In this document: positions 450 through 44,317 of the stretch, piece after piece
How the letters are laid out: every line of letters begins with the position of its first letter
How positions within the stretch are numbered: the stretch's first letter is position 1
Notes under the pieces: generated by a model
Told to the model about the DNA's origin: nothing
What the model saw: only the letters and a program-made list of their open reading frames with translations
Database searches by the model: none
Position numbers and translations under genes: made by a program
DNA from: an uncultured Bacteroides sp.
GTDB taxonomy: Bacteria > Bacteroidota > Bacteroidia > Bacteroidales > Muribaculaceae
DNA: 63,409 nucleotides
Direction: 5' to 3'
Assembly: GCA_964651295.1 (NCBI GenBank)
Contig: CAZYYV010000001.1
Location: forward strand, 1 to 63,409

Positions 450-1172
450 TTATAAGCTCGAATCGTCATAGTTATGTGTGCGAAGATATTGGCACACGGG
501 TATAGGCTTAAATGCAAAATCACTAACTGCAGCGTCTGACGAGAATGTACGGTTGGTGGTATAGCGTGCATACCGTTTACGTCCGTATACTAAACGTCCA
601 AACCACTGTTGTGGTCCGGTGCTGAGGTTCGATATTCGTTTATCCTTCATGCGGTATGATAGAGCTTCGGCATAGTCGTGAATTGTGGGGTGTTCGCCAT
701 CGGTAATGTTGTAAATTACTCGTTCGTTTAGTTGTACGTCTCCTGCTGCGATGGCGCGAATCAACTCGGCTACATCGCTTGCATGAATCACACTGCGGCG
801 AGCTTCATTATTCGGAAAATGATAAAATACTCCACGCCATATTTCCTCTGCAAGGTCGCGTGGATATCCATTCATCCCCGTGCCGATTATATCTGCGCAA
901 CGGAGTATGATGCCTTTGATGCCTTTTTGCGCTACTGCTTTGGTAAATGCCGCTTCACGTGTTGCCCAAACAGACGTTGGGTCAATCGGTGTTTCTTCTG
1001 TTGCCAGAGTGTATGCACCGGGGCCATATATATCAGTGCTCGAAAGCATGATGGCAAGAGCCGGGTTCGATGCACTTTCAAGGTTGGATAGCAATACTCC
1101 TGCAAGGGCTTGCTTTATGTATGGCTCGACAAATGTTGCCTCGGGCATATATATTATTACTTCGTCTATCAT
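450..1172 (-). CDS. Extended-SDR (NAD-dependent epimerase/dehydratase)-like protein lacking the N-terminal Rossmann motif
   Basis: SDR-like motifs LSSTDIYG, ILRCADIIG, RRSVIHASDVA, YNITDG; likely ATG at 1172 overlaps the upstream stop (ATGA). Confidence 0.7.
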   Translation of the reverse strand: MIDEVIIYMPEATFVEPYIKQALAGVLLSNLESASNPALAIMLSSTDIYGPGAYTLATEETPIDPTSVWATREAAFTKAVAQKGIKGIILRCADIIGTGMNGYPRDLAEEIWRGVFYHFPNNEARRSVIHASDVAELIRAIAAGDVQLNERVIYNITDGEHPTIHDYAEALSYRMKDKRISNLSTGPQQWFGRLVYGRKRYARYTTNRTFSSDAAVSDFAFKPIPVCQYLRTHNYDDSSL

Positions 1173-1909
1173 TTGTTTCTGAGTTTTAGATATGTTAGAA
1201 ATCTGCAAGCAATTGTGGCGGTTGATACTTTTAGTCCGTTTTCATGTAGTGCTTGCACTTTTTCTCGTGTGTTGGTCACTAGTTTAGCGTAGAGCGTATT
1301 CGATGCTCCTCCGCACTCCATATTGGTAGTTACTCCGGGCATATATCGACCTTTGTACTTTTTCTTTCCTAAGAATAAACGGATAAATAGTTCGAAATCT
1401 GCTCCGATTGAATATTTTTCTTTATATGGTCCTACATCCCACATTGTCTTACTCGATATAAAAAGCGAGGGGTGTGGTGGTGCAAAGCCTCCGAGTAAAT
1501 GCTCGGGGCGGAATCTCTCGGATGTATAGTGGCGAAAAATGCGTCCAGGTTCTGACGCCTTAATATAGTTTACGTTACCATATACAAAGTCTGGAGATTC
1601 GCTCTCAAATATCTTTACAATTCGTTCGATAACGTAATCATCGGCTAGTTCATCATTGCCGTGAATGGTGCCGATAATATCGCCCGTTGCTTGAAATATG
1701 CCCTCATTAAGGGCATTATACACTCCGCGAGCCGGTCGGTTTAGAACCCTAGCACCTCCGACATCGATTCCGGTCAATGGCGTTGAGCCATTAACGATGA
1801 TGTGTTCTATTTCAACATTCGATGGTAGTACTTGTCTGTGGATGCTGTCTATTGTGCGTTTTAGCAGCATGCCATCGTCTTTGGTTATGGTGATTATTGA
1901 TACTCGCAT
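1169..1909 (-). CDS. Glycosyltransferase family 2 (WcaE/PGL-like)
   Basis: MRVSIITIT, EHIIVNG, GVYNALNEGI, PPHPS, ADFEL; ATG at 1909 overlaps the upstream stop (TAATG). Confidence 0.88.
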   Translation of the reverse strand: MRVSIITITKDDGMLLKRTIDSIHRQVLPSNVEIEHIIVNGSTPLTGIDVGGARVLNRPARGVYNALNEGIFQATGDIIGTIHGNDELADDYVIERIVKIFESESPDFVYGNVNYIKASEPGRIFRHYTSERFRPEHLLGGFAPPHPSLFISSKTMWDVGPYKEKYSIGADFELFIRLFLGKKKYKGRYMPGVTTNMECGGASNTLYAKLVTNTREKVQALHENGLKVSTATIACRFLTYLKLRNK

Positions 1910-3321
1910 TATAATACGTCCCATCCGTGTGGGGAATAATGATTAAGTGTTGCAAATATGACAACTAGTGCAACTGCTAACGTTGCCATATAGCAGAGGC
2001 TCCATCGTTTGAACAACAATGTTTGCCATTCGCCGCTGTCATATACCCAGATTGCTGCTGGTATGAAGAATGGCAACCAGGGAAGACAGTAGCGCGATAC
2101 TGTGCCTCCGGTTACGAACGCTGTCGCTATCGTTGCTAGCACCGCAAAAATAAACGGATTGACTACTCGCATCGGCGAACGCCTTATGCAGAATATCATG
2201 AAGTATAGCAAGACACCTCCGAGGCAATACCATGGAAAACTGAAATGTGATATCGCACTCGACGGGCCGAAAACAATATCTCGTCCGAATGCCCACGGCA
2301 GTGGTGTAATATATTGCACCGCTAATGAAAATGGAAGGCGGATAATGCGCTCAAATGTCGTGAGGTACATATAGTCGCCCGCTACTGCGGTATATGCATT
2401 GAGTCGGGCTGTATTTCCGTTAGATAATTCAAAATTTGTGGTATCTGTAGCTATATCGAGTGGAGCATTACTGATTTCAAAGTAATGCAATGTCGCGCAA
2501 ATTCCTAGCGCAACAACTAAATGAGAGATGCCACGTACTAAGCTCTTGTGGTCCGACTTGATGAGCGACAATGCAATTGCTATAGCTATAAATAGTGGCA
2601 ACCAACTGCGTATTAAAGCTCCGACGCATATCGCTATTAGTGGCAATGTCCAACGGCTCCACTCGTGCCTAGCTCCGTAGAGCCCATATAGCGACATGGC
2701 CATCATCAAACAGCACATCGCATCTTTTATCAATAGGCAACCTGTATTGAGAAAGTATGTAATCGATCCCAATACAATTATCGATGTCGTTGCAACTGAA
2801 GCCTTTGGATGCTTGACTGCAAGTAGTTGTGTTGTCGTCGCTCCTGTCAATATTATAGCGGATATTATTGCTAGCAGATTAGTAATAAGCAATCGATTGA
2901 GTGTCGGTTGAAAACCGAAGCAATTAAGTGCCAATAACAACCCATACCCGCGACGTGAAACGTGAACTCCGCTTTCCGTCGTATTACCTTCTAGGCTTGA
3001 ATTCATCTGAGTCCAAGCGGTAGAGGCATCATTATTTAGGAGTACGGGATCGGTTAGGCTGCCTCCGCTGTATTCGGTATAGTACCAGATGTTAATTATC
3101 TGTCCTATTGCTACTACGGTACACAACACAACTACCGCTATCTCTCCAAATAAGTTGGTTGGGCATAGACGTCGGTATAACAATATTAGTATTGCCGATA
3201 CACCTGTGTAGTATAATAATTGCTCAATGATTGATCCAGGATATAGAGCTAACAAGAAGAATCCAATCAATAACACTGCACAAGCTTTTATGGCAAGTAA
3301 TGCAGGTAATTTCCTTTTCAC
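1909..3321 (-). CDS. Polytopic membrane protein, Wzy/GT-C-like polysaccharide polymerase or transferase candidate
   Basis: About 11-12 hydrophobic segments with two large loops; LIKDA and SRYCLPWLP motifs; coupled to the GT2 gene; likely GTG start at 3321. Confidence 0.6.
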   Translation of the reverse strand: MKRKLPALLAIKACAVLLIGFFLLALYPGSIIEQLLYYTGVSAILILLYRRLCPTNLFGEIAVVVLCTVVAIGQIINIWYYTEYSGGSLTDPVLLNNDASTAWTQMNSSLEGNTTESGVHVSRRGYGLLLALNCFGFQPTLNRLLITNLLAIISAIILTGATTTQLLAVKHPKASVATTSIIVLGSITYFLNTGCLLIKDAMCCLMMAMSLYGLYGARHEWSRWTLPLIAICVGALIRSWLPLFIAIAIALSLIKSDHKSLVRGISHLVVALGICATLHYFEISNAPLDIATDTTNFELSNGNTARLNAYTAVAGDYMYLTTFERIIRLPFSLAVQYITPLPWAFGRDIVFGPSSAISHFSFPWYCLGGVLLYFMIFCIRRSPMRVVNPFIFAVLATIATAFVTGGTVSRYCLPWLPFFIPAAIWVYDSGEWQTLLFKRWSLCYMATLAVALVVIFATLNHYSPHGWDVL

Positions 3322-3325
3322 AATG

Positions 3326-3333
3326 CAAATGTA
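3326..3333 (-). promoter_or_regulatory. Bacteroidota -7 promoter box
   Basis: TACATTTG on the minus strand, ending 5 nt before GTG 3321. Confidence 0.6.
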
Positions 3334-3459
3334 CGAAAAATGATAAATATTCCAAATTATAAGACGATTTTCTAAACACCAACGACTAATCGCCATTTTG
3401 CCTTACCCTATCTTTACATCTTTTAGCCTGGCAAAAAAGGTTTCTTTGCTTTTTTTTAG

Positions 3460-4247: not shown

Positions 4248-4269
4248 TCCATACAGACATACGAAATAG

Positions 4270-4299
4270 TCGACAGCCGAGCTTTTGCTTGGCTGTCGA
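4270..4299 (+). terminator. Hairpin after fabG (no U-tail)
   Basis: tcgacagccgagc-tttt-gcttggctgtcga. Confidence 0.55.
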
Positions 4300-4390
4300 T
4301 GTGTATTAAGAGCTAAAATTGCGATACTGCTTGTAAGTGTCGCAATTTTTTAGTTACTTTGATGAAATTTTCACCTTTATCGAAGCCGAA

Positions 4391-5542
4391 ATGGAAAAAC
4401 AGTCGGAATATAGTTATTATGCATTTATAAGTTACAGTTCAAAAGATGCTAAATGGGCCAAATGGTTACTTCGGCGTTTGGAAAACTATAGCTTGCCTTC
4501 TGTGACGTGGAAGCAGATTTTAAAAACTCGCAAGTTCAATCAGATTTTAAAAATGCGAGAGCACCCGATACAGCCTGTTTTCCTTGATTGTGCCGAGATA
4601 CAACCGGGTGTATTGGAAGAAGTCCTTAGGGAGAATCTGCGAGAGTCGCAATATCTGATTGTTATCGCGTCGCCAAATTCGGCTAAGTCTAAATGGGTTG
4701 GTGATGAAATTAAGTACTTCCATAGCCTCGGTCGCGAAAAGAATATTTTCTTTTTAATCGTTGATGGCGATAAACCGGAAGAATACTTCCATCCGGTTTT
4801 GAAAGAGTTGGGTATGCCCGAAATGCTTGGGGCTGACGTCAACTATAAGTATTCAAAGTTCAAGAAGATTAATCGCGATCGTGCCTACATTCAGATTATA
4901 TCGAAGTTACTCGGTTTAAAGTTCGATGACCTGTGGAAACGTCATCGTCGGCGCTTGATCAAAAACATCTCTATGTCGGTCGTTGGGGCTATTCTTGTAA
5001 TTGCTGCTCTTATTGGTGTTTGGGTCGCTAATCGCCCCGTCGACATTGATGTGCAGTTAACTGAGAAATCGTTTCACAACGAGAATCTTCCGCCTCTAAA
5101 AAATGCCATCGTAACTCTCTGTCTTGATGATGAAATAAAGATAGATACGATTTCTGACCTCGATGATTTTGCTTCCTTTGTCAACGTTCCACATTTTAAC
5201 CTAGGTACAAAAGTGGGCTTATCGATTGTTTGTCGCGATTGGCAAACGATAGATACTACAATAGTCCTCGCTCGTCAAATGAATATCGACATGCAACGCA
5301 ACGTTCATGTATACGGCGATGTCGATTTCAGCGTTTGGAATAGTTCTACCGAGCGTTCGGTGCCGAATTTCGCTATAACGGTGGATAAGTATGACGTCGT
5401 TTCTGATGATAAAGGTAGGGTGCGATTATTTATCCCTCTCGAGGAGCAACGAACTGCCTATAAGGTTAAATCTTCAATCCCATTAGTTTATGATTTCGTA
5501 CACCTTCCCCATGGTGAGAATGATGTAGTTATAATTAAGTAA
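4391..5542 (+). CDS. Membrane-anchored TIR-domain protein with C-terminal periplasmic beta domain
   Basis: YAFISYS, VFLD, LIVIASPNSAKSKWVGDEI (catalytic Glu); KRHRRR then one TM helix; beta-rich C-terminus; likely start ATG 4391 rather than GTG 4337. Confidence 0.9.
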   Translation: MEKQSEYSYYAFISYSSKDAKWAKWLLRRLENYSLPSVTWKQILKTRKFNQILKMREHPIQPVFLDCAEIQPGVLEEVLRENLRESQYLIVIASPNSAKSKWVGDEIKYFHSLGREKNIFFLIVDGDKPEEYFHPVLKELGMPEMLGADVNYKYSKFKKINRDRAYIQIISKLLGLKFDDLWKRHRRRLIKNISMSVVGAILVIAALIGVWVANRPVDIDVQLTEKSFHNENLPPLKNAIVTLCLDDEIKIDTISDLDDFASFVNVPHFNLGTKVGLSIVCRDWQTIDTTIVLARQMNIDMQRNVHVYGDVDFSVWNSSTERSVPNFAITVDKYDVVSDDKGRVRLFIPLEEQRTAYKVKSSIPLVYDFVHLPHGENDVVIIK

Positions 5543-5545
5543 GCC

Positions 5546-8500
5546 ATGAGAAGCTTATTTTCGTTTTTATTCGCTGTTGTCGCAGTATTTGCGATCTCTG
5601 CCCAGACACAGATCGGTTATGTAAAGACTAAGGGCAGATTGCTTAGCGATGGTAAGATCGTCGCTGGTAGTCGTATCAGTGGTGCAACGATTCAAGTGAA
5701 GAATCGTTCGGCTGTTGTGAGTGATCAAACCGGCAATTTTTCATTTCCGCTATCCGAATCAAATTATTACTTGCAATCTGTAAGCAAAAATGGATATGTA
5801 TTGACCGACCGAGATATTCTCTCAAAGCAGTATGAATATTCAATCAATCCGCTGGTTATTGTACTCGAGACTCCGGACGAACTACTTGACGAACAACTAG
5901 CTGCCGAACGTAAAATCCGTCGAACTCTTCAACGCGATCTTCAAAAGAAAGAGGACGAAATCGAAGCTCTTAAGGAACAAAACCGCATTTCTGCCGAAGA
6001 TTATCGCCAACGTCTTCAAGATCTATACAATCAGCAAGAAAAGGACGAAAAACTTATTGCCGAAATGGCTGAGCGATATGCAAAAATCGACTATGACCAA
6101 CTCGATGATTTTAATCGCAAAATAAACGAGTATATTCTCAACGGCGAACTTTCAAAAGCCGATTCGTTGCTTAATACAAAAGGCGATATCGTCGACGAAA
6201 TCAATAATTTAAAGCGAATTGGTGAAGCTAATGTAAAGGAAGCTCAAGAACTATCGTTGCGCCAATCTAATCTCGCAAAAAGCAAGGCTTACGAGGATCT
6301 TCGTAAAGTAGAACTCGCTCAGTGGTGTATGAGTAAGCACGAAATATGCAAAACTCAACACGACCTCGATTCTGCGGCCCATTATATAGAACTTCGTGCA
6401 TCTATCGACCCGACAAATGGTCTGTGGTTATTTGATGCGGGGCGCTTTTTAGATGAGTATAAAGGCGACTATGATAAAGCGTTAGATTATTATCAAAAGG
6501 CTTTGCCTTTGAATATATCGAAATATGGTCAGGCGAGCCCGGATGTGGCTATGTGCTATAGTAATATTGGTCTGGTTCTATACTATCAGGGTAATTATCA
6601 TGAGGCTTTGTGCTACCATCAAAATGCCATGACAATTCGTTTGGAAATATATGGAGAACAGCATCAGAGCGTGGCAAATACGTATAGTAATATCGGCTTG
6701 GTATATGATTGCCAAGGTCTATATGCCGAGGCCATGGATTACTATCAAAAGGCGTTGAAAATCAGAAAATCTATCTATGGCGACAACCACATCGACCTAG
6801 CTATGGGATATAACGATATTGGTCGTAATTTGTGTTCTCAAGGAGCTTATTCGAAGGCTCTGGAATATCATAAAAAGGCTTTGGAGATTTATGTGAGGGC
6901 CTATGGCGAAGAGCATCCCGACGAAGTCGAAAGCTATAATAGCATCGGCAATACATATTACTTCCAAGGTCGCTACTCCGAGGCTCTCGAGTACTATAAG
7001 AAAGCTTTAGCGATTATGCTTGAGGTATATAATGATTCTCATCCACATATTGCTTCGAGCTATAATAATATTGGTAACGTTCTGGTTGCGCAAGGGTATT
7101 ACTCGGAAGCTATGGACTATTATCTAAAGGCTTTGAATATCTATTCGACTGTATTGGGCGAAAAGCATACAAACGTAGCTATGTGTTGGAACAATTTAGG
7201 TCGTACATATGACGATCAAGCTCAATACTCCGAAGCTTTAGATAGTTATAGTAAAGCCTTAGCCATATACCTGGATGCCTATGGCGAAACGCATCCCGAT
7301 GTCGCTGATAGCTACAATAACATTGGTAATGTCTATAAGTCTCAAGGTCGTTACACTCAGGCTCTCGAAAGTCATCAAAAAGCGTTGGCGATAAGTTTGG
7401 CTCTTTCTGGTGATAAACATCCCGATGTTGCAACTAGCTACAATAATATGGGGCTCGTTTACTGTTCTCAAGAACGGTATCTCGAAGCCTTGGAAAGCTA
7501 TCAAAAGGCATTGGAGATTTTCCTTGACGTTCATGGTAAAGATCATCCCGATATTGCAATGTGCTACAACAATATCGGTAGTGTTTACGACGACGAGGAG
7601 AGCTATACCGAGGCGTTAGACTTCTATCGCAAGGCTTTAGCGATATATAAGGCTGTTTATGGCGAAAAGCATCCTTATGTAGCAAAATCGTATGATAATA
7701 TGGGTGTAGTACTATGTAAGCAAGGACAATATACCCAAGCGTTATTTTATCACCAGATGGCTTTATCGATAAAAACCGGTATATATGGTAAAGATCATCA
7801 GTTTATTGCAGATAGCTATTATAAGATTGGCGCTGTGCAGCAGTGTCAAAATAATTATGCTGTTGCACGCGATTACTATACAAAAGCATTAGATATTTAT
7901 AAACGTACATTAGGTGATGATCACCCATTGTGTTCCATGCTCGAAAATGAAATCTCTGGTAATTCGGCAGTCTCTGCTGAAACTATGAGGTCGATGATGA
8001 GTCGTTTTGCGGCTGACGACAAATTGGTTGCGGCAAAACTAGTTACCGAAGCTACCATTATGTTGAACAATCGTGCTACTGTGGTGAGTGTGATAAGTCG
8101 CGATTCTTCATTGCCTACTGTTTTTGCATTCAAAATGCCGAATGGTAGTAACGATGATTTTAATCGAAAAGTAAGCTCGTATATTATCAGCGGCAAGATC
8201 CCCGAAATTGAAACCACAACAAAATCCCTCGATAACAATCGCGAATTAAAGGGCATCGATCGTACGATGGATGTTATTTGGAGGGATATGGATCGAACTC
8301 GCAAGGCTGTCGATAGAAGTATGGGCACTGAGAAATTGTTCACCGCGGACGCTGCACAAGGTTGTTATGCAAAATACGTTATATGCAAGACCTTGAATCA
8401 ACTAGACTCTGCTGCTTATTATATCGAATGTTGTGCTTCAATCGATTCAACTAATGTAACTTGGCAGGTCGATGCCGGTAATATCAATTACCAATATAAG

Positions 8501-8755
8501 TCAGATTACGATATGGCTTTAAAATATTACCGCACTGCACTCCGAACTGCAATCAAGCAATATGGAGATGCGCATGTAGATAATGCCGCTATTTATAACA
8601 ACATAGGCAACGCGTACTATTCGAAAGAGAATTATGCCGATGCTTTGAAGTTTTATCGCAAAGCTTTGTCGATCTCGGGTAAAAGACAGCCATATTTTGA
8701 CACGCTAAATACACAGATAGAACGAATTTCTAAAAAGAAGAGTAGAGTGCGATGA
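5546..8755 (+). CDS. Secreted TPR-repeat protein (beta-sandwich + coiled coil + 42-aa TPR array + second degenerate module)
   Basis: Signal peptide ending AISA|QTQ; 11 tandem repeats of HPxVAxSYNNIGxVYxxQGxYxEALxYYxKALxI. Confidence 0.92.
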   Translation: MRSLFSFLFAVVAVFAISAQTQIGYVKTKGRLLSDGKIVAGSRISGATIQVKNRSAVVSDQTGNFSFPLSESNYYLQSVSKNGYVLTDRDILSKQYEYSINPLVIVLETPDELLDEQLAAERKIRRTLQRDLQKKEDEIEALKEQNRISAEDYRQRLQDLYNQQEKDEKLIAEMAERYAKIDYDQLDDFNRKINEYILNGELSKADSLLNTKGDIVDEINNLKRIGEANVKEAQELSLRQSNLAKSKAYEDLRKVELAQWCMSKHEICKTQHDLDSAAHYIELRASIDPTNGLWLFDAGRFLDEYKGDYDKALDYYQKALPLNISKYGQASPDVAMCYSNIGLVLYYQGNYHEALCYHQNAMTIRLEIYGEQHQSVANTYSNIGLVYDCQGLYAEAMDYYQKALKIRKSIYGDNHIDLAMGYNDIGRNLCSQGAYSKALEYHKKALEIYVRAYGEEHPDEVESYNSIGNTYYFQGRYSEALEYYKKALAIMLEVYNDSHPHIASSYNNIGNVLVAQGYYSEAMDYYLKALNIYSTVLGEKHTNVAMCWNNLGRTYDDQAQYSEALDSYSKALAIYLDAYGETHPDVADSYNNIGNVYKSQGRYTQALESHQKALAISLALSGDKHPDVATSYNNMGLVYCSQERYLEALESYQKALEIFLDVHGKDHPDIAMCYNNIGSVYDDEESYTEALDFYRKALAIYKAVYGEKHPYVAKSYDNMGVVLCKQGQYTQALFYHQMALSIKTGIYGKDHQFIADSYYKIGAVQQCQNNYAVARDYYTKALDIYKRTLGDDHPLCSMLENEISGNSAVSAETMRSMMSRFAADDKLVAAKLVTEATIMLNNRATVVSVISRDSSLPTVFAFKMPNGSNDDFNRKVSSYIISGKIPEIETTTKSLDNNRELKGIDRTMDVIWRDMDRTRKAVDRSMGTEKLFTADAAQGCYAKYVICKTLNQLDSAAYYIECCASIDSTNVTWQVDAGNINYQYKSDYDMALKYYRTALRTAIKQYGDAHVDNAAIYNNIGNAYYSKENYADALKFYRKALSISGKRQPYFDTLNTQIERISKKKSRVR
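6524..7909 (+). repeat. 11 x 126-bp coding tandem repeat (42-aa kinesin-light-chain-type TPRs)
   Basis: Exact 42-aa period from YGQASPDVA to YKRT. Confidence 0.92.
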
Positions 8756-9876
8756 AACACTTATCGTTTGTACTATTGTTTTGTGTCTCGGCCTTTGCCC
8801 TCTGTGCTCAGACTCAAGTTGGTTATGTAAAGACTAAGGGTCGATTGACTTCCGATGGAGAAGTTGTTTCTGGTAAACGAATTGGTGGTGCGACTATACA
8901 GGTGAAGGACCGATCGGCAGTCGTGAGCTCTGTGAATGGCGATTTTTCGTTTCCGCTTGTTACACAGAATTTCTATCTTCAGTCGGTAACGAAAAATGGC
9001 TATGTAGTGGTCGACAGAGACATCCTTTCAAAGCAGTATGAGTATTCTGCCAATCCACTTGTCATTGCTCTCGAAAGCGCAAGCGATCAACTTGATGAAC
9101 GACTAGCTGCCGAACGCAAAATTAGACGCACTTTGCAGCGCGATTTGCAGAAAAAGGAGGCTGAAATCGAATCTCTTAAAGAACAGAATCGAATTACTGC
9201 CGATGAGTTTCGTCACCGTCTCCAAGATATTTACGAGCAGCAAGAGAAAGATGAAAAGCTAATCGCAGAAATGGCTAAGAGATATGCTAAAACCGATTAT
9301 GACCAAATTGATGAGTATAATCGTCAACTAAACGAATATATCCTTAATGGCGAACTCTCGAAAGCTGACTCGCTTATCAATACTAAAGGCGATATTCACG
9401 CTGATGTATCAGAATTACGCCGACTAGAAGCTGCGATGGCTAAAGAGGCGTCGGATATTGCTCAAGCGAGAACGATGGTTGATAAGAGCGTTGGATATGA
9501 ACAATTTATGATGAATAAAACTGCTCAAGAGTGTTATGCGAGATTTGAGGTATATAAGGCGAAGAATCAGATGGATTCCGCAGCTTTTTATATAGGTCTT
9601 CGTGCGGCTCTTGATACGGTGAACGTCGATTGGCAATGTGATGCCGCCGACTTCTATCGGACTGTCGATGATTACTCCCAAGCGATCGATTGCTTTAGTC
9701 GTGCGTTGCGCATCGCCGAACGTGAATATGGCACTGAGTCGGTTGAACTTAAATTGGCTGTTCGAAAATTAAACGATTGTTATCTTGGTATAATCGACTC
9801 TAAAGATGTGGCAGATGACATCCGTCGTGAGTATAGAGACTTCACTCATAAATATGGCAGATTTATTAAAGAATAG
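8752..9876 (+). CDS. Secreted short TPR protein, paralogue of 5546..8755
   Basis: Signal peptide ending ALCA|QTQ; 196-aa N-terminal module colinear with the upstream gene; ATGA overlap. Confidence 0.9.
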   Translation: MKHLSFVLLFCVSAFALCAQTQVGYVKTKGRLTSDGEVVSGKRIGGATIQVKDRSAVVSSVNGDFSFPLVTQNFYLQSVTKNGYVVVDRDILSKQYEYSANPLVIALESASDQLDERLAAERKIRRTLQRDLQKKEAEIESLKEQNRITADEFRHRLQDIYEQQEKDEKLIAEMAKRYAKTDYDQIDEYNRQLNEYILNGELSKADSLINTKGDIHADVSELRRLEAAMAKEASDIAQARTMVDKSVGYEQFMMNKTAQECYARFEVYKAKNQMDSAAFYIGLRAALDTVNVDWQCDAADFYRTVDDYSQAIDCFSRALRIAEREYGTESVELKLAVRKLNDCYLGIIDSKDVADDIRREYRDFTHKYGRFIKE

Positions 9877-11457: not shown

Positions 11458-12099
11458 ATGGAGCAGTTGTTATACATATTGCCGCGTGGCTTAGCGATAG
11501 GCTTGCTAGTATCAGCACCGATGGGTCCCATCGGCATGTTGGTCATTCAGCGTACCCTTGGCAAAGGCCGATGGCCCGGATTCTTTTCAGGAGTTGGCGC
11601 CGCGATGAGTGATTTGTTCTACTGTCTTCTTACCGGGTTTTGCTTAAGTTTTATTACAGATTTCCTTGATGCCCATCAGTTAGTGATACAGTTGTTGGGC
11701 AGTGTAGTGATTGCCGGTTTTGCTGTATACCTACTTCGAAAGAATCCGACTCGCTCGTTGCGCACCGCTGAAGTTAAAGCTACGAATTATTGGAGCGATT
11801 TCGTAACAGGCTTTTTGTTGACAGTCTCTAATCCTCTGATACTCTTCTTTATCGTCGGTCTCTTTGCTCGTTTTAATTTTATTCAACCTGAATATACATT
11901 CTATCACCATATAGTAGCGTATGTTACGATTTTTCTTGGCGCATTATGTTGGTGGTGGGGTATAACGAGTCTAGTCAATCGGTTGGGCAAACGCATCAAT
12001 GTGCGCTCGCTCAAGCTTATCAATCGTATCATAGGACTACTATTGATGGCAATGGCTGTTTTTGGACTAGTCATGGCTCTTCAGGATATTTTTAAATAG
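11458..12099 (+). CDS. LysE-family exporter
   Basis: GLLVSAPMGPIG, GFLLTVSNP, about 6 TM helices. Confidence 0.9.
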   Translation: MEQLLYILPRGLAIGLLVSAPMGPIGMLVIQRTLGKGRWPGFFSGVGAAMSDLFYCLLTGFCLSFITDFLDAHQLVIQLLGSVVIAGFAVYLLRKNPTRSLRTAEVKATNYWSDFVTGFLLTVSNPLILFFIVGLFARFNFIQPEYTFYHHIVAYVTIFLGALCWWWGITSLVNRLGKRINVRSLKLINRIIGLLLMAMAVFGLVMALQDIFK

Positions 12100-12103
12100 G
12101 ATT

Positions 12104-12754
12104 ATGGAAGCAAAGACACTTCGTATACCGCGAATCGATAGTCTTGATTCGCTCTCGGATTCATCTGATATTCGAGCTACTCTAGATAAAAGAGGCGCAC
12201 ATACGCTTGTGGACGTTGTTAATTGGGTTCAGTATCCGGCAAAACCGCAAACCATGCTTCGTGCTGCGTATTCTTCGACCGGGTTGTATCTAGATTTCGA
12301 AGTTGAGAACGACTATGTAGGAGCCGAGAATACGGAAAATCAGTCGCCGGTAAGCAAGGACGAATGTGTTGAAGCTTTTTTACAGCCACAGATAGATGGT
12401 GAGTATTGGAATTTCGAGTTCAATTGCATTGGTGCTATCAACGCCTCGCATCGTCTTGTTCGCCCCGAACCCGTTCGCCTTACAACCGATGAGTTGGCCC
12501 TCGTACGCCGAGATTCCACTTTGGGTGCAGAGCCATTCGCAGAACGACGAGGCGATTTTCGTTGGCGTCTCCTAATTGTGATTCCGTGGTCGCTGATGGC
12601 GGTTACTCCCGAAGCCGACACTGCTATTAGAGGAAACTTCTACAAGTGTGCATCGGCTTCGCAGCGTCCTCACTATCTAAGTTGGAATCCGATAGAAACA
12701 GAAAAACCGGACTATCATCGTCCCGAGTTCTTCGGCACACTTATTCTCGATTAA
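12104..12754 (+). CDS. Carbohydrate-binding family 9-like (DOMON-like) protein
   Basis: DECVEAF, YWNFEFNCIG, GNFYKC, PHYLSWNPI, PDYHRPEFFG. Confidence 0.85.
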   Translation: MEAKTLRIPRIDSLDSLSDSSDIRATLDKRGAHTLVDVVNWVQYPAKPQTMLRAAYSSTGLYLDFEVENDYVGAENTENQSPVSKDECVEAFLQPQIDGEYWNFEFNCIGAINASHRLVRPEPVRLTTDELALVRRDSTLGAEPFAERRGDFRWRLLIVIPWSLMAVTPEADTAIRGNFYKCASASQRPHYLSWNPIETEKPDYHRPEFFGTLILD

Positions 12755-12756
12755 TT

Positions 12757-14283
12757 ATGAAGCAAGTCGGAGCATTACTTGCTGCCGTTGCGATGAGTAT
12801 TCTTCCTGTTACGGCAGAAGTTGATATCGAATATCGTACATCGGTATCTGCTAATATCTCGTCTGGTAGATTGGCTCCATATATGATAGGTTCGTGGAAT
12901 TACGGACGTATAGATGGAGCTTCTGGTATTTGGCACGCAGGAGGTCTCTTCAAATCAATCGACTTTGGTCGACGTCTTGATTGGGGCGCAGGAGTGGAGT
13001 ATATTGTAGGGTATGGATCGGCAGCTAACTATGATTTGTATCAAGCAGAGACCGCTTCGTGGACCACGCAGTCGAATCGACAAGCTCCATTTCGACTTCA
13101 ACAACTGTACGGAGAATTGAAGTATCGTAGCGTATTCCTTCTTGCCGGAATGAAAGAACGTCCGTCTGCTGGTATCGTTGATGATTCGATGTCGTCGGGA
13201 GATTTAACTCGAAGTAATAATGCTCGTCCGATACCTATGATTTCAGCCGGATTCAATGATTTTGTAGACATCCCATTTACCAATGGATGGGTGCAAATCG
13301 ATGGAGAAATCGGTTATGGCAAGTTCTTTGATAAAGGATATCGCGAAGAGACGTTCAACTACTATTCAGGAGTATTCGATTATAATAGCTACTATACTTA
13401 CAAACGCTGTCATTTTCGCTCAAATCCTGATAAGCCGCTGATAATTACTTTTGGTATGCAGACTGCGGGTGAGTTTGGCGGCGTTGGTCGCATATATACT
13501 CAAGGTCGAGTTACCGCTGAAGAGAATCGGCCTTTCAAGTTAGGCGATATATTTGAAATGTTTTTTCCACAAGAGGGAAGTGGAGAAGGCTATTATAAAG
13601 GCAATTCACTCGGCTCGTGGGACCTCAAAGCTCAATATCGATTTATCGACGGCTCTACTCTTGCTGCTTACTTCGAAGGACCTTGGGAAGATGGTTCAGG
13701 CATCGGTCGTAAAAATGGTTGGGACGGCCTTTGGGGCGTGCAGTATAATTTTGCCAAACGCGGACCGGTAAATAAAGTGGTGGTTGAATATTTCGACTTT
13801 ACCAATCAATCCGGACCAATCCATTGGGCACCCTCCGATAACTTAGGTACGACTATTGACTTTAATTGTACCGGAGGCGATAACTACTATAATAATGATT
13901 TCTATGGTCCGTACTCCAACTACGGATTGAGTATTGGTTCTCCTTTTGTCGTGTCGCCTCTCTATAACGAGAATGGCTCGCCAAGCTATAACCACAATCG
14001 AGCTCGTGGTGTTCATGCAGCCGTTTCAGGCGACCTTACGCCGGAGTGGTCATACGTGGTGAAGGCAAGCTATCAAGAAGCTGGTGGCTCAGGGCGGAAT
14101 CCGGCTCCTGAAATAATCCATAATACGTCAGCAATGACCCAAGTATCGTGGACTCCCGGCATTATTCCCGGCTTGCAAGTGAAAGCGATGTTGGCATTCG
14201 ATGCCGGCAAACTCCGAGGGGATAATGTAGGCGGAATGGTGTCGATTTCGTATTCCGGAAACTTTAATATTGGTAAGAAATGA
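12757..14283 (+). CDS. Capsule assembly Wzi-family outer-membrane beta-barrel
   Basis: Signal peptide at ATG 12757; SSGDLTRSNNARPIP, GNSLGSWD, GGDNYYNN motifs. Confidence 0.8.
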   Translation: MKQVGALLAAVAMSILPVTAEVDIEYRTSVSANISSGRLAPYMIGSWNYGRIDGASGIWHAGGLFKSIDFGRRLDWGAGVEYIVGYGSAANYDLYQAETASWTTQSNRQAPFRLQQLYGELKYRSVFLLAGMKERPSAGIVDDSMSSGDLTRSNNARPIPMISAGFNDFVDIPFTNGWVQIDGEIGYGKFFDKGYREETFNYYSGVFDYNSYYTYKRCHFRSNPDKPLIITFGMQTAGEFGGVGRIYTQGRVTAEENRPFKLGDIFEMFFPQEGSGEGYYKGNSLGSWDLKAQYRFIDGSTLAAYFEGPWEDGSGIGRKNGWDGLWGVQYNFAKRGPVNKVVVEYFDFTNQSGPIHWAPSDNLGTTIDFNCTGGDNYYNNDFYGPYSNYGLSIGSPFVVSPLYNENGSPSYNHNRARGVHAAVSGDLTPEWSYVVKASYQEAGGSGRNPAPEIIHNTSAMTQVSWTPGIIPGLQVKAMLAFDAGKLRGDNVGGMVSISYSGNFNIGKK

Positions 14284-42379: not shown

Positions 42380-44317
42380 TTATTGGTTAATCATATTATT
42401 GACCTCTTCAGTCAATAATTGTGCAAAGTTACTAATTTTCATCGAACCGAGATCACCTTCGCCGGTTTTTCTTACAGAAACTTCACCATTTTCTGCTTCT
42501 TTTTCGCCAACAACGAGCATATAGGGTACTCGTTTGAGCTGATTATCGCGAATTTTGCGGCCGAGTGTTTCGTTTCTGTCATCGATTGTGAGGCGAATGT
42601 CTGCAGCTTCAAGTTCTTCAGCTACTTTCTTCGCGTAATCGAGATATTTGTCGCTGACGGGGATGATTACTGCTTGTTCGGGTGCGAGCCAGAGGGGGAA
42701 ACGTCCGGCTGTGTGTTCGAGCAATACTGCTACGAAACGTTCCATCGAACCGAATGGTGCACGGTGAATCATCACGGGGCGATGTTTGGCATTGTCGCTA
42801 CCGGTGTATTCGAGTTCGAAGCGTTCGGGTAAGTTGTAGTCAACCTGGATTGTGCCAAGCTGCCAACGACGACCGATTGCATCTTTCACCATGAAGTCGA
42901 GTTTGGGACCGTAGAATGCTGCTTCGCCGAGTTCTGTGCGGGCGTTGATACCCTTCTCTGCACATGCTTCGATGATAGCTTGTTCGGCTTTGTGCCAATT
43001 TTCGTCGGTGCCGATGTATTTTTCTTTGTTATTGGGGTCGCGGAGTGAGATCTGAGCCTCATAGTTTTCAAACTTCAACGCTTTGAAGATGTAAAGGATG
43101 ATATCCATCACTTTGAGGAACTCGTCTTTAATCTGCTCGGGAGCACAATAGATGTGTGCGTCATCCTGCGTAAAGCCTCGAACTCGGGTCAAGCCGTGGA
43201 GTTCACCACTCTGTTCGTAGCGATATACTGTACCGAATTCTGCAAGTCGGAGTGGAAGATCGCGATATGAGCGGGGAAGTGCACGGAAGATTTCGCAGTG
43301 GTGAGGGCAGTTCATTGGTTTGAGGAGGTATTCCTCACCTTCTTCGGGGGTATGAATGGGTTGGAATGAATCCTTGCCATATTTTGCATAGTGGCCCGAA
43401 GTAACGTAGAGCTGCTTGTTACCGATATGTGGAGTGATTACCTGCTGGTAACCATATTTCTTCTGAATTTTGCGAAGGAATTGTTCGAGACGATCGCGGA
43501 GAGCAGCGCCTTTGGGAAGCCAAAGAGGAAGACCTGCACCTACCTTAGTAGAGAATGCAAAGAGTTCCATTTCTTTACCAAGTTTACGGTGGTCGCGTTT
43601 TTTAGCTTCTTCGAGGAGCGCGAGGTATTCGTCAAGCATAGCTTTCTTGGGGAAAGTAATGCCATAAACACGTACGAGCTGATTGCGCTTTTCGTCACCG
43701 CGCCAGTAAGCACCTGCAAGACTCATGATTTTTGCGGCCTTGATAGGAGCGGTGGAGGGGATGTGCGGGCCACGGCAGAGATCGGTGAATGAACCCTGTG
43801 TGTATGTGGTGATGTGGCCATCTTCAAGCTCGGAGATAAGTTCACACTTATATTCTTCGTTACGTTCTCCGAACAGTTTCAAAGCATCTGCTTTGCTGAT
43901 ATCGGCGCGAACAATCTGTTGGTCTTGTTTCGCAAGTTCAAGCATCTTGGCTTCGATTTTGCCAAAATCGTCAGATGTGAGCTTGTTTTTACCCGGATCG
44001 ATGTCGTAGTAAAAACCGTTTTCGATAGCCGGACCGATGCCGAATTTCACACCGGGATAGAGTTCTTGGAGCGCTTCTGCAAGAAGGTGAGCCGAACTGT
44101 GCCAGAAAGCATGTTTGCCTTCAGCATCTTCCCACTTGAAAAGTTTGATAGTTGCATCGGTGTCGACGGGGCGAGTGAGATCCCACTCCTGATCGTTGAT
44201 CGAAGCGGTGAGAACCTCGCGAGCGAGGCGGGGAGATATGGATTGTGCAATCTGAAGTGGAGTAACTCCTGCTTCAAATTCCTTTACACTATTATCGGGA
44301 AATGTGATCTTTATCAT
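42380..44317 (-). CDS. thrS: Threonine--tRNA ligase
   Basis: MIKITFPD start at 44317; [36 protein letters not shown]. Confidence 0.98.

What the first reader, a model, noticed from the sequence alone, without database searches (positions are those of the whole stretch)
4391..9876. Three-gene cassette: transmembrane TIR plus two secreted TPR proteins (Toll-like receptor with soluble co-receptors?)
Seen: three tightly coupled genes (3-nt gap, then an ATGA overlap) between the fabG hairpin and the hisS promoter. Gene 1 has a cytoplasmic TIR with the conserved Glu (SKWVGDEI), a basic KRHRRR stop-transfer, one TM helix and a beta-rich exterior domain (..VVSDDKGRVRL..). Genes 2 and 3 are signal-peptide proteins with a similar beta-sandwich motif (..VVSDQTGNFSF..), a coiled coil and TPRs. 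Established: bacterial TIR domains with this Glu cleave NAD+ on oligomerisation, as in Thoeris, TIR-STING, SPARTA and Pycsar, whose sensors are mostly cytoplasmic. Inference: periplasmic TPR proteins bind an envelope-level ligand (phage injection protein, toxin or host factor) and cluster the TIR across the inner membrane. I know of no named system with this split architecture, but could not search for one.
Basis: partly seen in the sequence, partly recalled or inferred. Interest (0 to 1): 0.88.

Follow-up and report, generated by a model that had tools for sequence, protein, structure and literature searches.

The report
Membrane TIR receptor with exported sensors
A gut bacterium encodes a membrane-spanning protein with an immune-type TIR enzyme domain next to two related repeat proteins predicted to be exported, and the two gene types occur together across many genomes, so they likely form an untested Toll-like receptor that would turn an event in the cell envelope into a nucleotide alarm signal.

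Summary
The cassette is real. Gene 1 encodes a TIR domain with an invariant WxxxE motif, one N-in membrane helix and two transthyretin-like beta-sandwiches. Genes 2 and 3 encode paralogous signal-peptide proteins (beta-sandwich, coiled coil, TPRs). A partner gene directly abuts the receptor gene in 33 of 37 well-flanked metagenome loci. Among 134 genus genomes, 19 of 20 with a partner have the receptor and all 19 with the receptor have a partner, clade-matched, even where the genes are unlinked. The same ectodomain also occurs on an anti-sigma/C39 protein, again with a partner. RyR-domain genes (a fold shown in 2026 to bind cADPR isomers) occur in 45 of 80 loci. This genome's only TIR_2 hit is gene 1, and it keeps two RyR-domain genes elsewhere. 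Best reading: a two-part envelope receptor whose TIR likely makes a cADPR-type messenger rather than simply draining NAD+. The RyR link is shared with other TIRs. Ten literature searches found no described system with this architecture; earlier notes of this scan report what looks like the same family.

The parts
4269..4300 (+). Terminator-like hairpin after fabG; left boundary of the cassette
   Evidence: 16-bp stem, -27 kcal/mol, z -6.2; no long U-tail, so it was missed by the terminator scan
4354..4361 (+). Possible Bacteroidota-type -7 promoter element, one mismatch to the consensus (consensus recalled, not from a call)
   Evidence: Pattern scan; the matching elements before fabG and hisS fit exactly. 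Function not tested
4391..5542 (+). Gene 1: single-pass TIR receptor, 383 aa
   Evidence: 1990 hits among 7999 scored candidates, the best 120 near full length
4415..4915 (+). TIR domain (about aa 9-175), predicted cytoplasmic
   Evidence: Pfam TIR_2; Z 14.3, rmsd 3.1, 133 aligned to MyD88 TIR and 13.5, 2.9, 129 to SARM1 TIR
4694..4708 (+). WxxxE motif (W102, catalytic-type E106)
   Evidence: Both residues 61 of 61 in A1; WxxxE in 80 of 80 loci; W or Y in 20 of 20 genus receptors
4970..5029 (+). Transmembrane helix (about aa 194-213) after a basic stretch; N-in topology inferred
5030..5539 (+). Ectodomain: two transthyretin/CnaB-like beta-sandwiches, predicted periplasmic
   Evidence: pLDDT about 90; Foldseek hits to pilin/CnaB/TIE proteins; 452 hits at E<=0.001 among 1.84 billion representatives
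5546..8755 (+). Gene 2: long partner, 1069 aa: signal peptide (aa 1-19), beta-sandwich (20-110), coiled coil (111-180), helical region, TPR array, degenerate second module
6527..7912 (+). Eleven 42-aa TPR_10/TPR_12-type repeats (aa 328-789); the likely ligand-binding array
   Evidence: mean identity between repeats 46% aa
8003..8617 (+). Degenerate internal copy of the protein's own N-terminal module (aa 820-1024)
   Evidence: 38% identical to aa 187-299 over 113 aa, plus a 38-aa beta remnant
8752..9876 (+). Gene 3: short partner, 374 aa; same N-terminal module with only one or two TPRs
   Evidence: beta domain matches the carboxypeptidase D transthyretin-like domain at Z 10.0, rmsd 2.1, 78 aligned

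Best explanation
Gene 1 is a single-pass membrane protein with a TIR domain and a beta-sandwich ectodomain, genes 2 and 3 are its co-inherited partners predicted to be periplasmic, and together they likely form a two-part receptor in which the partners would dock on the ectodomain, sense a protein ligand with their variable TPR arrays and cluster the TIR, which would then convert NAD+ to a cADPR-type messenger likely read by RyR-domain proteins. Shown: architecture, conservation, gene coupling, clade-matched co-occurrence, association with RyR genes. Inferred: periplasmic location, docking through the partner's conserved N-terminal module, activation by clustering, the product, the readers. 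In this genome the candidate readers are an MscS-like membrane protein with an adjacent RyR-domain protein (contig C50) and a stand-alone RyR protein (contig C22), the latter possibly a signal buffer. In relatives an anti-sigma/C39-RyR protein next to an ECF sigma gene would give a transcriptional output. The trigger is most likely a foreign protein in the periplasm (phage or rival-cell origin); that step has the least support.
For: (1) A partner directly abuts the receptor gene (<=100 bp, same strand) in 57 of 80 loci, and 33 of 37 with >=3 kb on both sides; it lies upstream in 27, downstream in 28, both in 2. (2) Genus profile of 134 genomes: ectodomain 17, partner 20, overlap 17; two of the other three have a 367-371-aa receptor. 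Among 50 TIR_2-positive genomes: 19 of 19 with the receptor have a partner, against 1 of 31 without. (3) In G532, G533, G453 and G537 the partners are single genes scattered among other genes and the receptor lies on another contig, so co-transfer alone does not explain the pattern. Three receptor clades match three partner clades (G541, G549 are partner outliers), and G516 has two receptors, each beside its matching partner. (4) The same TM-ectodomain is fused to an anti-sigma/C39 module beside an ECF sigma gene in 3 loci of G026 and G434; a partner is adjacent in 2 and elsewhere in the genome in the third. That module, with invariant Cys and His, is otherwise fused to RyR. (5) Invariant WxxxE; the Trp is needed for ADPR cyclisation (10.1101/2022.05.07.491051, passages). 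(6) RyR-domain genes in 45 of 80 loci, 22 within 150 bp of the receptor gene. Phage RyR domains bind or cut cADPR isomers (PMC13232231; 10.64898/2026.06.04.730250). The C22 protein has His, Trp, His, Asp at the published spacing (0, +3, +25, +42; read). Gene 1 is the only TIR_2 match in G000, G460 and G549, and all three have RyR genes. (7) Conservation falls from TIR (mean distance 0.24) to ectodomain (0.54) to partner N-terminus (0.68); partner distances follow the ectodomain (r 0.45) more than the TIR (0.12). Partner length runs from about 250 to 1473 aa.
Against: No experiment and no complex model. RyR genes go with TIR genes in general (31 of 50 vs 4 of 84 genomes) and not with this receptor in particular (13 of 19 vs 18 of 31, p 0.56); 6 of 19 receptor genomes had no Pfam RyR match. 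WxxxE also occurs in non-cyclising TIRs and in TLR2, which aligns to gene 1 there and is not known as an NADase (recalled). Three of 37 well-flanked loci have no partner and G435 has a partner but no receptor found with A1. The ectodomain-partner correlation drops to 0.19 without close pairs, and partner subfamily labels switch on the receptor tree. No TPR position shows omega significantly above 1 (maximum 1.13). About 8 of 118 nearby proteins, in about 6 loci, hit a PADLOC defence model over most of its length, most of them candidate models. No relatives were found in viral contigs. The window's TIR is a long branch with an altered BB loop. Genomes are kin, so the p-values overstate.
Confidence: 0.45

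Rival explanations
1. Guard model: the partner binds the ectodomain and keeps the TIR off; its removal, cleavage or titration by an invader fires the TIR. Short partners such as gene 3 would be dedicated inhibitors.
For: All 19 receptor genomes have a partner while one partner genome lacks the receptor, the asymmetry expected of an antidote. Short forms nearly devoid of TPRs recur, about 10 among the complete partners.
Against: Three well-flanked loci lack an adjacent partner (the rest of those genomes unseen). An inhibitor does not need several dispersed paralogues with long variable TPR arrays. The anti-sigma version uses the same partner.
Confidence: 0.2
2. One reading: the same two-part receptor, but the clustered TIR is itself the effector and kills or stalls the cell by draining NAD+ (abortive infection).
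For: No effector gene in this operon. Catalytic Glu invariant. 6 of 19 receptor genomes lack a Pfam RyR match. TIR effectors of CBASS, Pycsar and pAgo systems deplete NAD+ (10.64898/2025.12.03.692087, section 5).
Against: Dense RyR association, invariant cyclisation Trp, and substitution of the TIR by a transcriptional anti-sigma output point to signalling.
Confidence: 0.2
3. The pathway is as in the best explanation but has nothing to do with invaders: it reports envelope stress or a dietary or host molecule, tuning ion flux and an ECF regulon.
For: Few known defence genes nearby. ECF sigma, MscS-like and kinase genes are common neighbours. Insertion among housekeeping genes.
Against: Patchy presence (19 of 134 genomes), lower GC, variable repeat arrays, pseudogenes, and CHAT, caspase, trypsin and STAND neighbours are typical of conflict systems.
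Confidence: 0.1
4. The two families do not interact; they merely share mobile TIR/RyR islands.
For: No binding shown. The islands hold many other recurrent genes.
Against: Clade-matched co-occurrence when unlinked, 19 of 19 vs 1 of 31 among TIR-positive genomes, and retention of the pair when the TIR is replaced.
Confidence: 0.05

Closest known systems
Thoeris systems, types I-XI (10.64898/2025.12.03.692087; passages and section 5 read)
   Same: TIR with catalytic Glu; likely NAD-derived messenger read by a separate effector; type X has an ion-channel effector. Weak ThsB profile hits.
   Different: Here the TIR is a single-pass membrane protein with an ectodomain, its operon partners are exported TPR proteins rather than effectors, and no known Ths effector is adjacent. 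The list of 29 putative types (figure and supplementary tables) was not visible to me.
E. coli TIR-II (PMC11350192; passages and section 6) and Bacillus cereus BcTir/BcTpr (10.1101/2023.05.26.542521; abstract)
   Same: TIR plus TPR, fused or on two genes; anti-phage activity shown there.
   Different: No signal peptide or periplasm mentioned in PMC11350192 (0 occurrences), whose authors note that TLR-like membrane features seem partly absent from their systems. BcTpr carries its own glycosidase domain; the partners here have no enzyme domain detected.
DdvA-DdvS of Myxococcus xanthus (PMC11506125; passages)
   Same: Single-pass receptor with a periplasmic TPR region linked to a defence output; the anti-sigma variant found here resembles it in logic.
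   Different: DdvA is one chain (TPR-CHAT) controlling a sigma factor, with no TIR and no separate TPR sensor; its signal is unknown.
Receptor-like ParA systems PCTM and TIR-ParA (10.64898/2026.10.19.760177; passages)
   Same: Predicted type II single-pass immune receptors with variable extracytoplasmic sensors, sometimes with a separate extracellular protein.
   Different: The cytoplasmic domain is ParA; computational only; different ectodomain and partner.
Phage RyR-domain proteins RyDEP and RyR Tad (PMC13232231, parts 1-2 of 6; 10.64898/2026.06.04.730250, passages)
   Same: Same Pfam family and ligand-residue spacing as the host RyR proteins associated with this receptor.
   Different: Those are viral sponges or hydrolases; host RyR domains as readers of a TIR signal were not tested in the parts read.
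Animal Toll-like and IL-1 receptors with soluble co-receptors such as MD-2 and CD14 (recalled)
   Same: Ectodomain, one helix, cytoplasmic TIR, accessory soluble ligand binder.
   Different: Opposite orientation (TIR is N-terminal here), transthyretin-like rather than LRR or Ig ectodomain, and probably an enzymatic rather than scaffolding TIR. Analogy, not homology of the whole receptor.

Membership tests
Thoeris | TIR (ThsB-like) domain with catalytic Glu | tested here: met
   PADLOC ThsB hits are weak and partial (best 32 bits)
Thoeris | Adjacent gene for a signal-activated effector (ThsA, C-L types) | tested here: not met
   Neighbours at this locus are two signal-peptide TPR proteins, fabG and hisS; no effector profile hit
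Thoeris | Soluble TIR protein that senses phage in the cytoplasm | tested here: not met
   One TM helix and a 170-aa ectodomain, conserved in 80 of 80 loci
Thoeris | Produces an ADPR-derived signal and protects against phage | not testable with these tools
   WxxxE and RyR association are indirect
TIR-II / BcTir-BcTpr | TIR and TPR on the same or adjacent genes | tested here: met
TIR-II / BcTir-BcTpr | TPR protein is cytoplasmic (in BcTpr with an N-terminal glycosidase) | tested here: not met
   Hydrophobic N-terminal signal-like stretch in 89 of 93 partners; N-terminal domain is transthyretin-like. Location is predicted, not measured
TIR-II / BcTir-BcTpr | Sequence homology to the described TIR-II or BcTir proteins | not tested
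   TIR-II sequences were not fetched; BcTir structure 8fz9 matches only at fold level (Z 11.7, rmsd 3.9, 125 aligned)
TIR effectors of CBASS, Pycsar, SPARTA, Avs | TIR fused to STING, SAVED, CNBD, APAZ or STAND, with cyclase or Argonaute gene nearby | tested here: not met
   No such domain or neighbour in the window cassette; one relative is an nSTAND1-TIR-TM-ectodomain fusion
DdvA-type TPR-CHAT anti-sigma | Cytoplasmic anti-sigma domain, periplasmic TPR-CHAT, cognate ECF sigma | tested here: not met
   No CHAT or anti-sigma domain in genes 1-3; no hit in G000 for the islands' ECF sigma family

The most novel reading that the evidence does not exclude
Bacteroidales have a Toll-like surveillance pathway for the periplasm: a repertoire of exported, diversifying TPR sensors, encoded beside or far from one shared membrane receptor, fires a TIR cyclase whose cADPR-type product acts on host ryanodine-receptor-type domains that control a membrane channel and an ECF sigma factor.
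Probability: 0.3. Interest if true: 0.92.

Novelty: new variant of a known kind. Interest (0 to 1): 0.74.

Why it matters
In the papers read here bacterial TIR signalling is described as cytoplasmic. A receptor that signals across the inner membrane using separate, exchangeable sensor proteins would be the closest bacterial analogue of a Toll-like receptor with soluble co-receptors. It would give an entry to how bacteria detect invaders before DNA enters. It also makes a long-standing question testable in small proteins: whether RyR (Repeat12-type) domains are cellular receptors for TIR-made cADPR isomers. This genome is a clean test case, with one TIR_2 gene, two partners and two RyR-domain genes.

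Tried and rejected
ESM Atlas: not answered. No RNA holder listed; expression untested. Empty-site search: no joint skipping the cassette in 4 runs laid. fabG and hisS share a contig in only one other of 61 genomes searched (G014), where a different gene lies between them, so insertion at this site is only suggested, together with GC of 41-43% against 46% for the genome. Fused receptor-partner protein as a Rosetta stone: P0292 and two cluster mates join most of the ectodomain to a partner's coiled coil and TPRs, but they lack most of the TIR and an unfused mate exists, so I treat them as a deletion derivative, not evidence. A search for longer ectodomain fusions found none among 403 candidates, which is weak. 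Positive selection on TPR repeats: 7 proteins with repeats over 70% alike; groove-facing positions (numbering recalled) omega 0.58 vs 0.29 elsewhere, none significantly above 1. Viral contigs: none with A1 or A2. Plasmids: 7 records, TIR part only. Genome-contig scan with one protein gave 3 weak loci. Order-wide draw: 8 of 401 genomes matched A1, 5 near full length. Lipoprotein signal: 1 of 94 partners had a lipobox-like motif; rejected. The careful tree did not finish; the quick tree was used. Ten paper searches found no description of this architecture; most subscription papers are outside the library, and supplements of the Thoeris survey and the other preprints were not seen and may list this TIR cluster.
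Full report
Observation. The three ORFs, their spacing and the upstream hairpin are as described. Gene 1 (4391-5542, 383 aa) has a Pfam TIR_2 domain over the cut-off, one hydrophobic helix after a basic stretch and, in an AlphaFold model from 61 sequences, an all-beta ectodomain at pLDDT about 90 that resembles CnaB and pilin sandwiches. Genes 2 (1069 aa) and 3 (374 aa) are paralogues, 65% identical over aa 19-299. Each has a signal-like N-terminus, a transthyretin-like domain, a long helical hairpin and TPRs: 11 regular 42-aa repeats in gene 2, one or two in gene 3. One contig of run X2 spans the region and may be the window's source. Named homologues are from Prevotella sp. and Bacteroidales, so I infer Bacteroidales.

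The receptor family. The best 120 of 1990 hits are near full length. W102 and E106 are invariant in 61 of 61 aligned proteins and WxxxE is present in 80 of 80 metagenome loci. Basic residues lie before the helix in 80 of 80, which implies a cytoplasmic TIR. A profile of the ectodomain found 452 representatives at E<=0.001; of the best 150, the 66 long enough to judge included 61 with a TIR. The same TIR-TM clade also carries beta-propeller, RHS-like or TPR C-termini in other proteins, so it is a family of receptor-like TIRs, of which this is the split form.

Coupling to the partner. A partner gene lies within 100 bp on the same strand in 57 of 80, and anywhere in the locus in 61. With at least 3 kb on both sides the counts are 33 and 34 of 37. 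After collapsing receptors at 75% identity, 27 of 29 well-flanked clusters have one. The profile was first built from database homologues of gene 3 and then extended on the loci themselves to a second subfamily, so part of the count is self-seeded. Gene order varies and 1 to 4 paralogues occur. In 134 genus genomes at least 80% complete, 17 match the ectodomain and 20 the partner, and all 17 overlap. Two of the other three hold a diverged receptor; G435 has none found with A1. Among the 50 genomes with any TIR_2 match, 19 of 19 with the receptor have a partner against 1 of 31 without. By my reading of coordinates, 16 of 19 ectodomain places lie within about 4 kb of a partner, while 16 of 35 partner places are unlinked. 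In G532, G533, G453 and G537 the partners are single genes among unrelated neighbours and the receptor is on another contig (two of these receptors end near a contig edge). Receptors fall into three clades at 45% identity and partners into three matching ones plus two outliers. These genomes are kin, so the statistics overstate, but matched co-occurrence without linkage is hard to explain by co-transfer.

A domain swap. In G026 (two loci) and G434 the same helix and ectodomain follow an anti-sigma-like, C39-peptidase-like module beside an ECF sigma-like gene; a partner is adjacent in both G026 loci and elsewhere in G434. In the TIR islands the same module, with invariant Cys and His, ends in an RyR domain instead. 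So ectodomain plus partner behaves as an input unit that is wired either straight to an anti-sigma output or to a TIR, with RyR as the likely bridge to the same output. This is inference from gene and domain order.

The likely output. Recurrent neighbours include membrane proteins ending in RyR, anti-sigma/C39-RyR, stand-alone RyR, ECF sigma, CHAT-TPR, caspase, trypsin, kinases, other TIRs and nSTAND1. A profile iterated on these loci finds 83 RyR-domain genes in 0.94 Mb, in 45 of 80 loci, 22 within 150 bp of the receptor gene. Pfam RyR gives only 38 places in 35 of 134 genus genomes (a stricter profile and different taxa, so a rough comparison). Two 2026 preprints show phage RyR domains binding or hydrolysing cADPR isomers through His, Trp, His and Asp (PMC13232231, parts 1-2 of 6; 10.64898/2026.06.04.730250, passages). 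The 96-aa RyR protein on contig C22 of this genome has these residues at the same spacing (read; I did not align the phage proteins) and matches the B. thetaiotaomicron-type and RyR structures strongly. A second, diverged RyR domain sits beside an MscS-like gene on C50. Gene 1 is the only TIR_2 match in this 99.8% complete genome. The Trp of WxxxE is needed for ADPR cyclisation in other TIRs but does not prove it (10.1101/2022.05.07.491051, passages). Against specificity: RyR tracks TIR genes in general (31 of 50 vs 4 of 84) and is no commoner with this receptor than with other TIRs (13 of 19 vs 18 of 31, p 0.56).

Is it defence? Presence is patchy, GC is low, partner repeats vary in number and some are recently duplicated (up to 86% mean nucleotide identity), and a decayed partner gene lies on contig C5. 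But no repeat position shows significant positive selection. Of 118 proteins nearest the receptor (of 244 candidates), about 8 in about 6 loci hit a PADLOC model over most of its length. No viral copies were found. An invader-sensing role is likely but weakly supported.

Comparison. It works like Thoeris in chemistry and like a Toll-like receptor or DdvA (PMC11506125, passages) in layout. It fails Thoeris membership on a soluble TIR and an adjacent effector, and TIR-II/BcTir-Tpr membership on the TPR protein's predicted location (PMC11350192, passages and section 6; 10.1101/2023.05.26.542521, abstract). Predicted receptor-like ParA systems are a thematic precedent (10.64898/2026.10.19.760177, passages). 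PMC8195603 (passages) showed no such system in the passages seen. Ten searches found no description; the Thoeris survey's figure and tables of 29 putative types were not visible. Earlier notes of this scan describe what looks like the same family in other Bacteroidales and TIR-RyR links elsewhere; they agree but are not independent evidence, and I reached the RyR link before reading them.

Verdict. A real, conserved and apparently undescribed two-part membrane TIR receptor. The functional link between receptor and partner is well supported by genomics (about 0.9). Binding-induced activation with a cADPR-type messenger read by RyR domains is the best mechanism (0.45); the guard and NAD-depletion models are the main rivals. 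Interest 0.74.

Noticed in passing
window 9798 (gene 3): Runs X2 and X7 have one extra base here; by my reading this ends gene 3 about 24 residues early. Homologues of 374-375 aa suggest the window's form is the older one.
   Followed up: partly
G000:C5 about 43,500-44,200 (L115 about 5,400-6,200): Decayed partner gene: N-terminal piece with stops, joined to a last TPR and a C-terminal domain; the middle is missing.
   Followed up: partly
G000:C50 about 12,000-14,250 (L138 7986-10245) and G000:C22 121-411 (L139): MscS-like membrane gene followed by an RyR-domain gene, and a stand-alone 96-aa RyR gene at a contig end; candidate readers or buffers of the TIR signal.
   Followed up: partly
L104 5911-8017, L137 3426-8081, L136 5600-7727: ECF sigma-like gene plus anti-sigma/C39-TM-ectodomain protein, with the TPR partner: a TIR-free version of the receptor that deserves its own study.
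   Followed up: partly
L015, L039, L046, L050, L051 partner C-termini: A conserved C-terminal domain of about 100 aa after the TPRs in 11 of 84 complete partners; by eye PDZ-like, not tested.
   Followed up: no
L140 6718-13898 and L148 1-10207: Recurring gene string RyR, TIR receptor, RyR-domain protein, trypsin, two kinase-like genes, CHAT-TPR; similar strings in L015, L028, L052.
   Followed up: no
L037, L043, L055 and related loci: The same chromosomal site (DUF4301 gene on one side, a conserved gene block on the other) holds different combinations of receptor, partners and RyR genes; L043 has no partner there.
   Followed up: no
L094 6611-10588, L095 1318-4530, L096 6567-8885, L099 5400-10583: Long proteins of the same TIR clade (650-1730 aa) with beta-propeller or RHS-like C-termini, most with one helix after the TIR: single-chain receptor-like TIRs.
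   Followed up: partly
P0279; L103 703-1428: An nSTAND1-TIR-TM-ectodomain fusion, and a TM-ectodomain protein with no cytoplasmic domain (possible decoy).
   Followed up: no
window 450-3396 (minus strand): Three genes upstream of fabG that look like polysaccharide or glycosylation genes (epimerase-like, glycosyltransferase-like, multi-TM), judged by eye; no link to the cassette seen.
   Followed up: no
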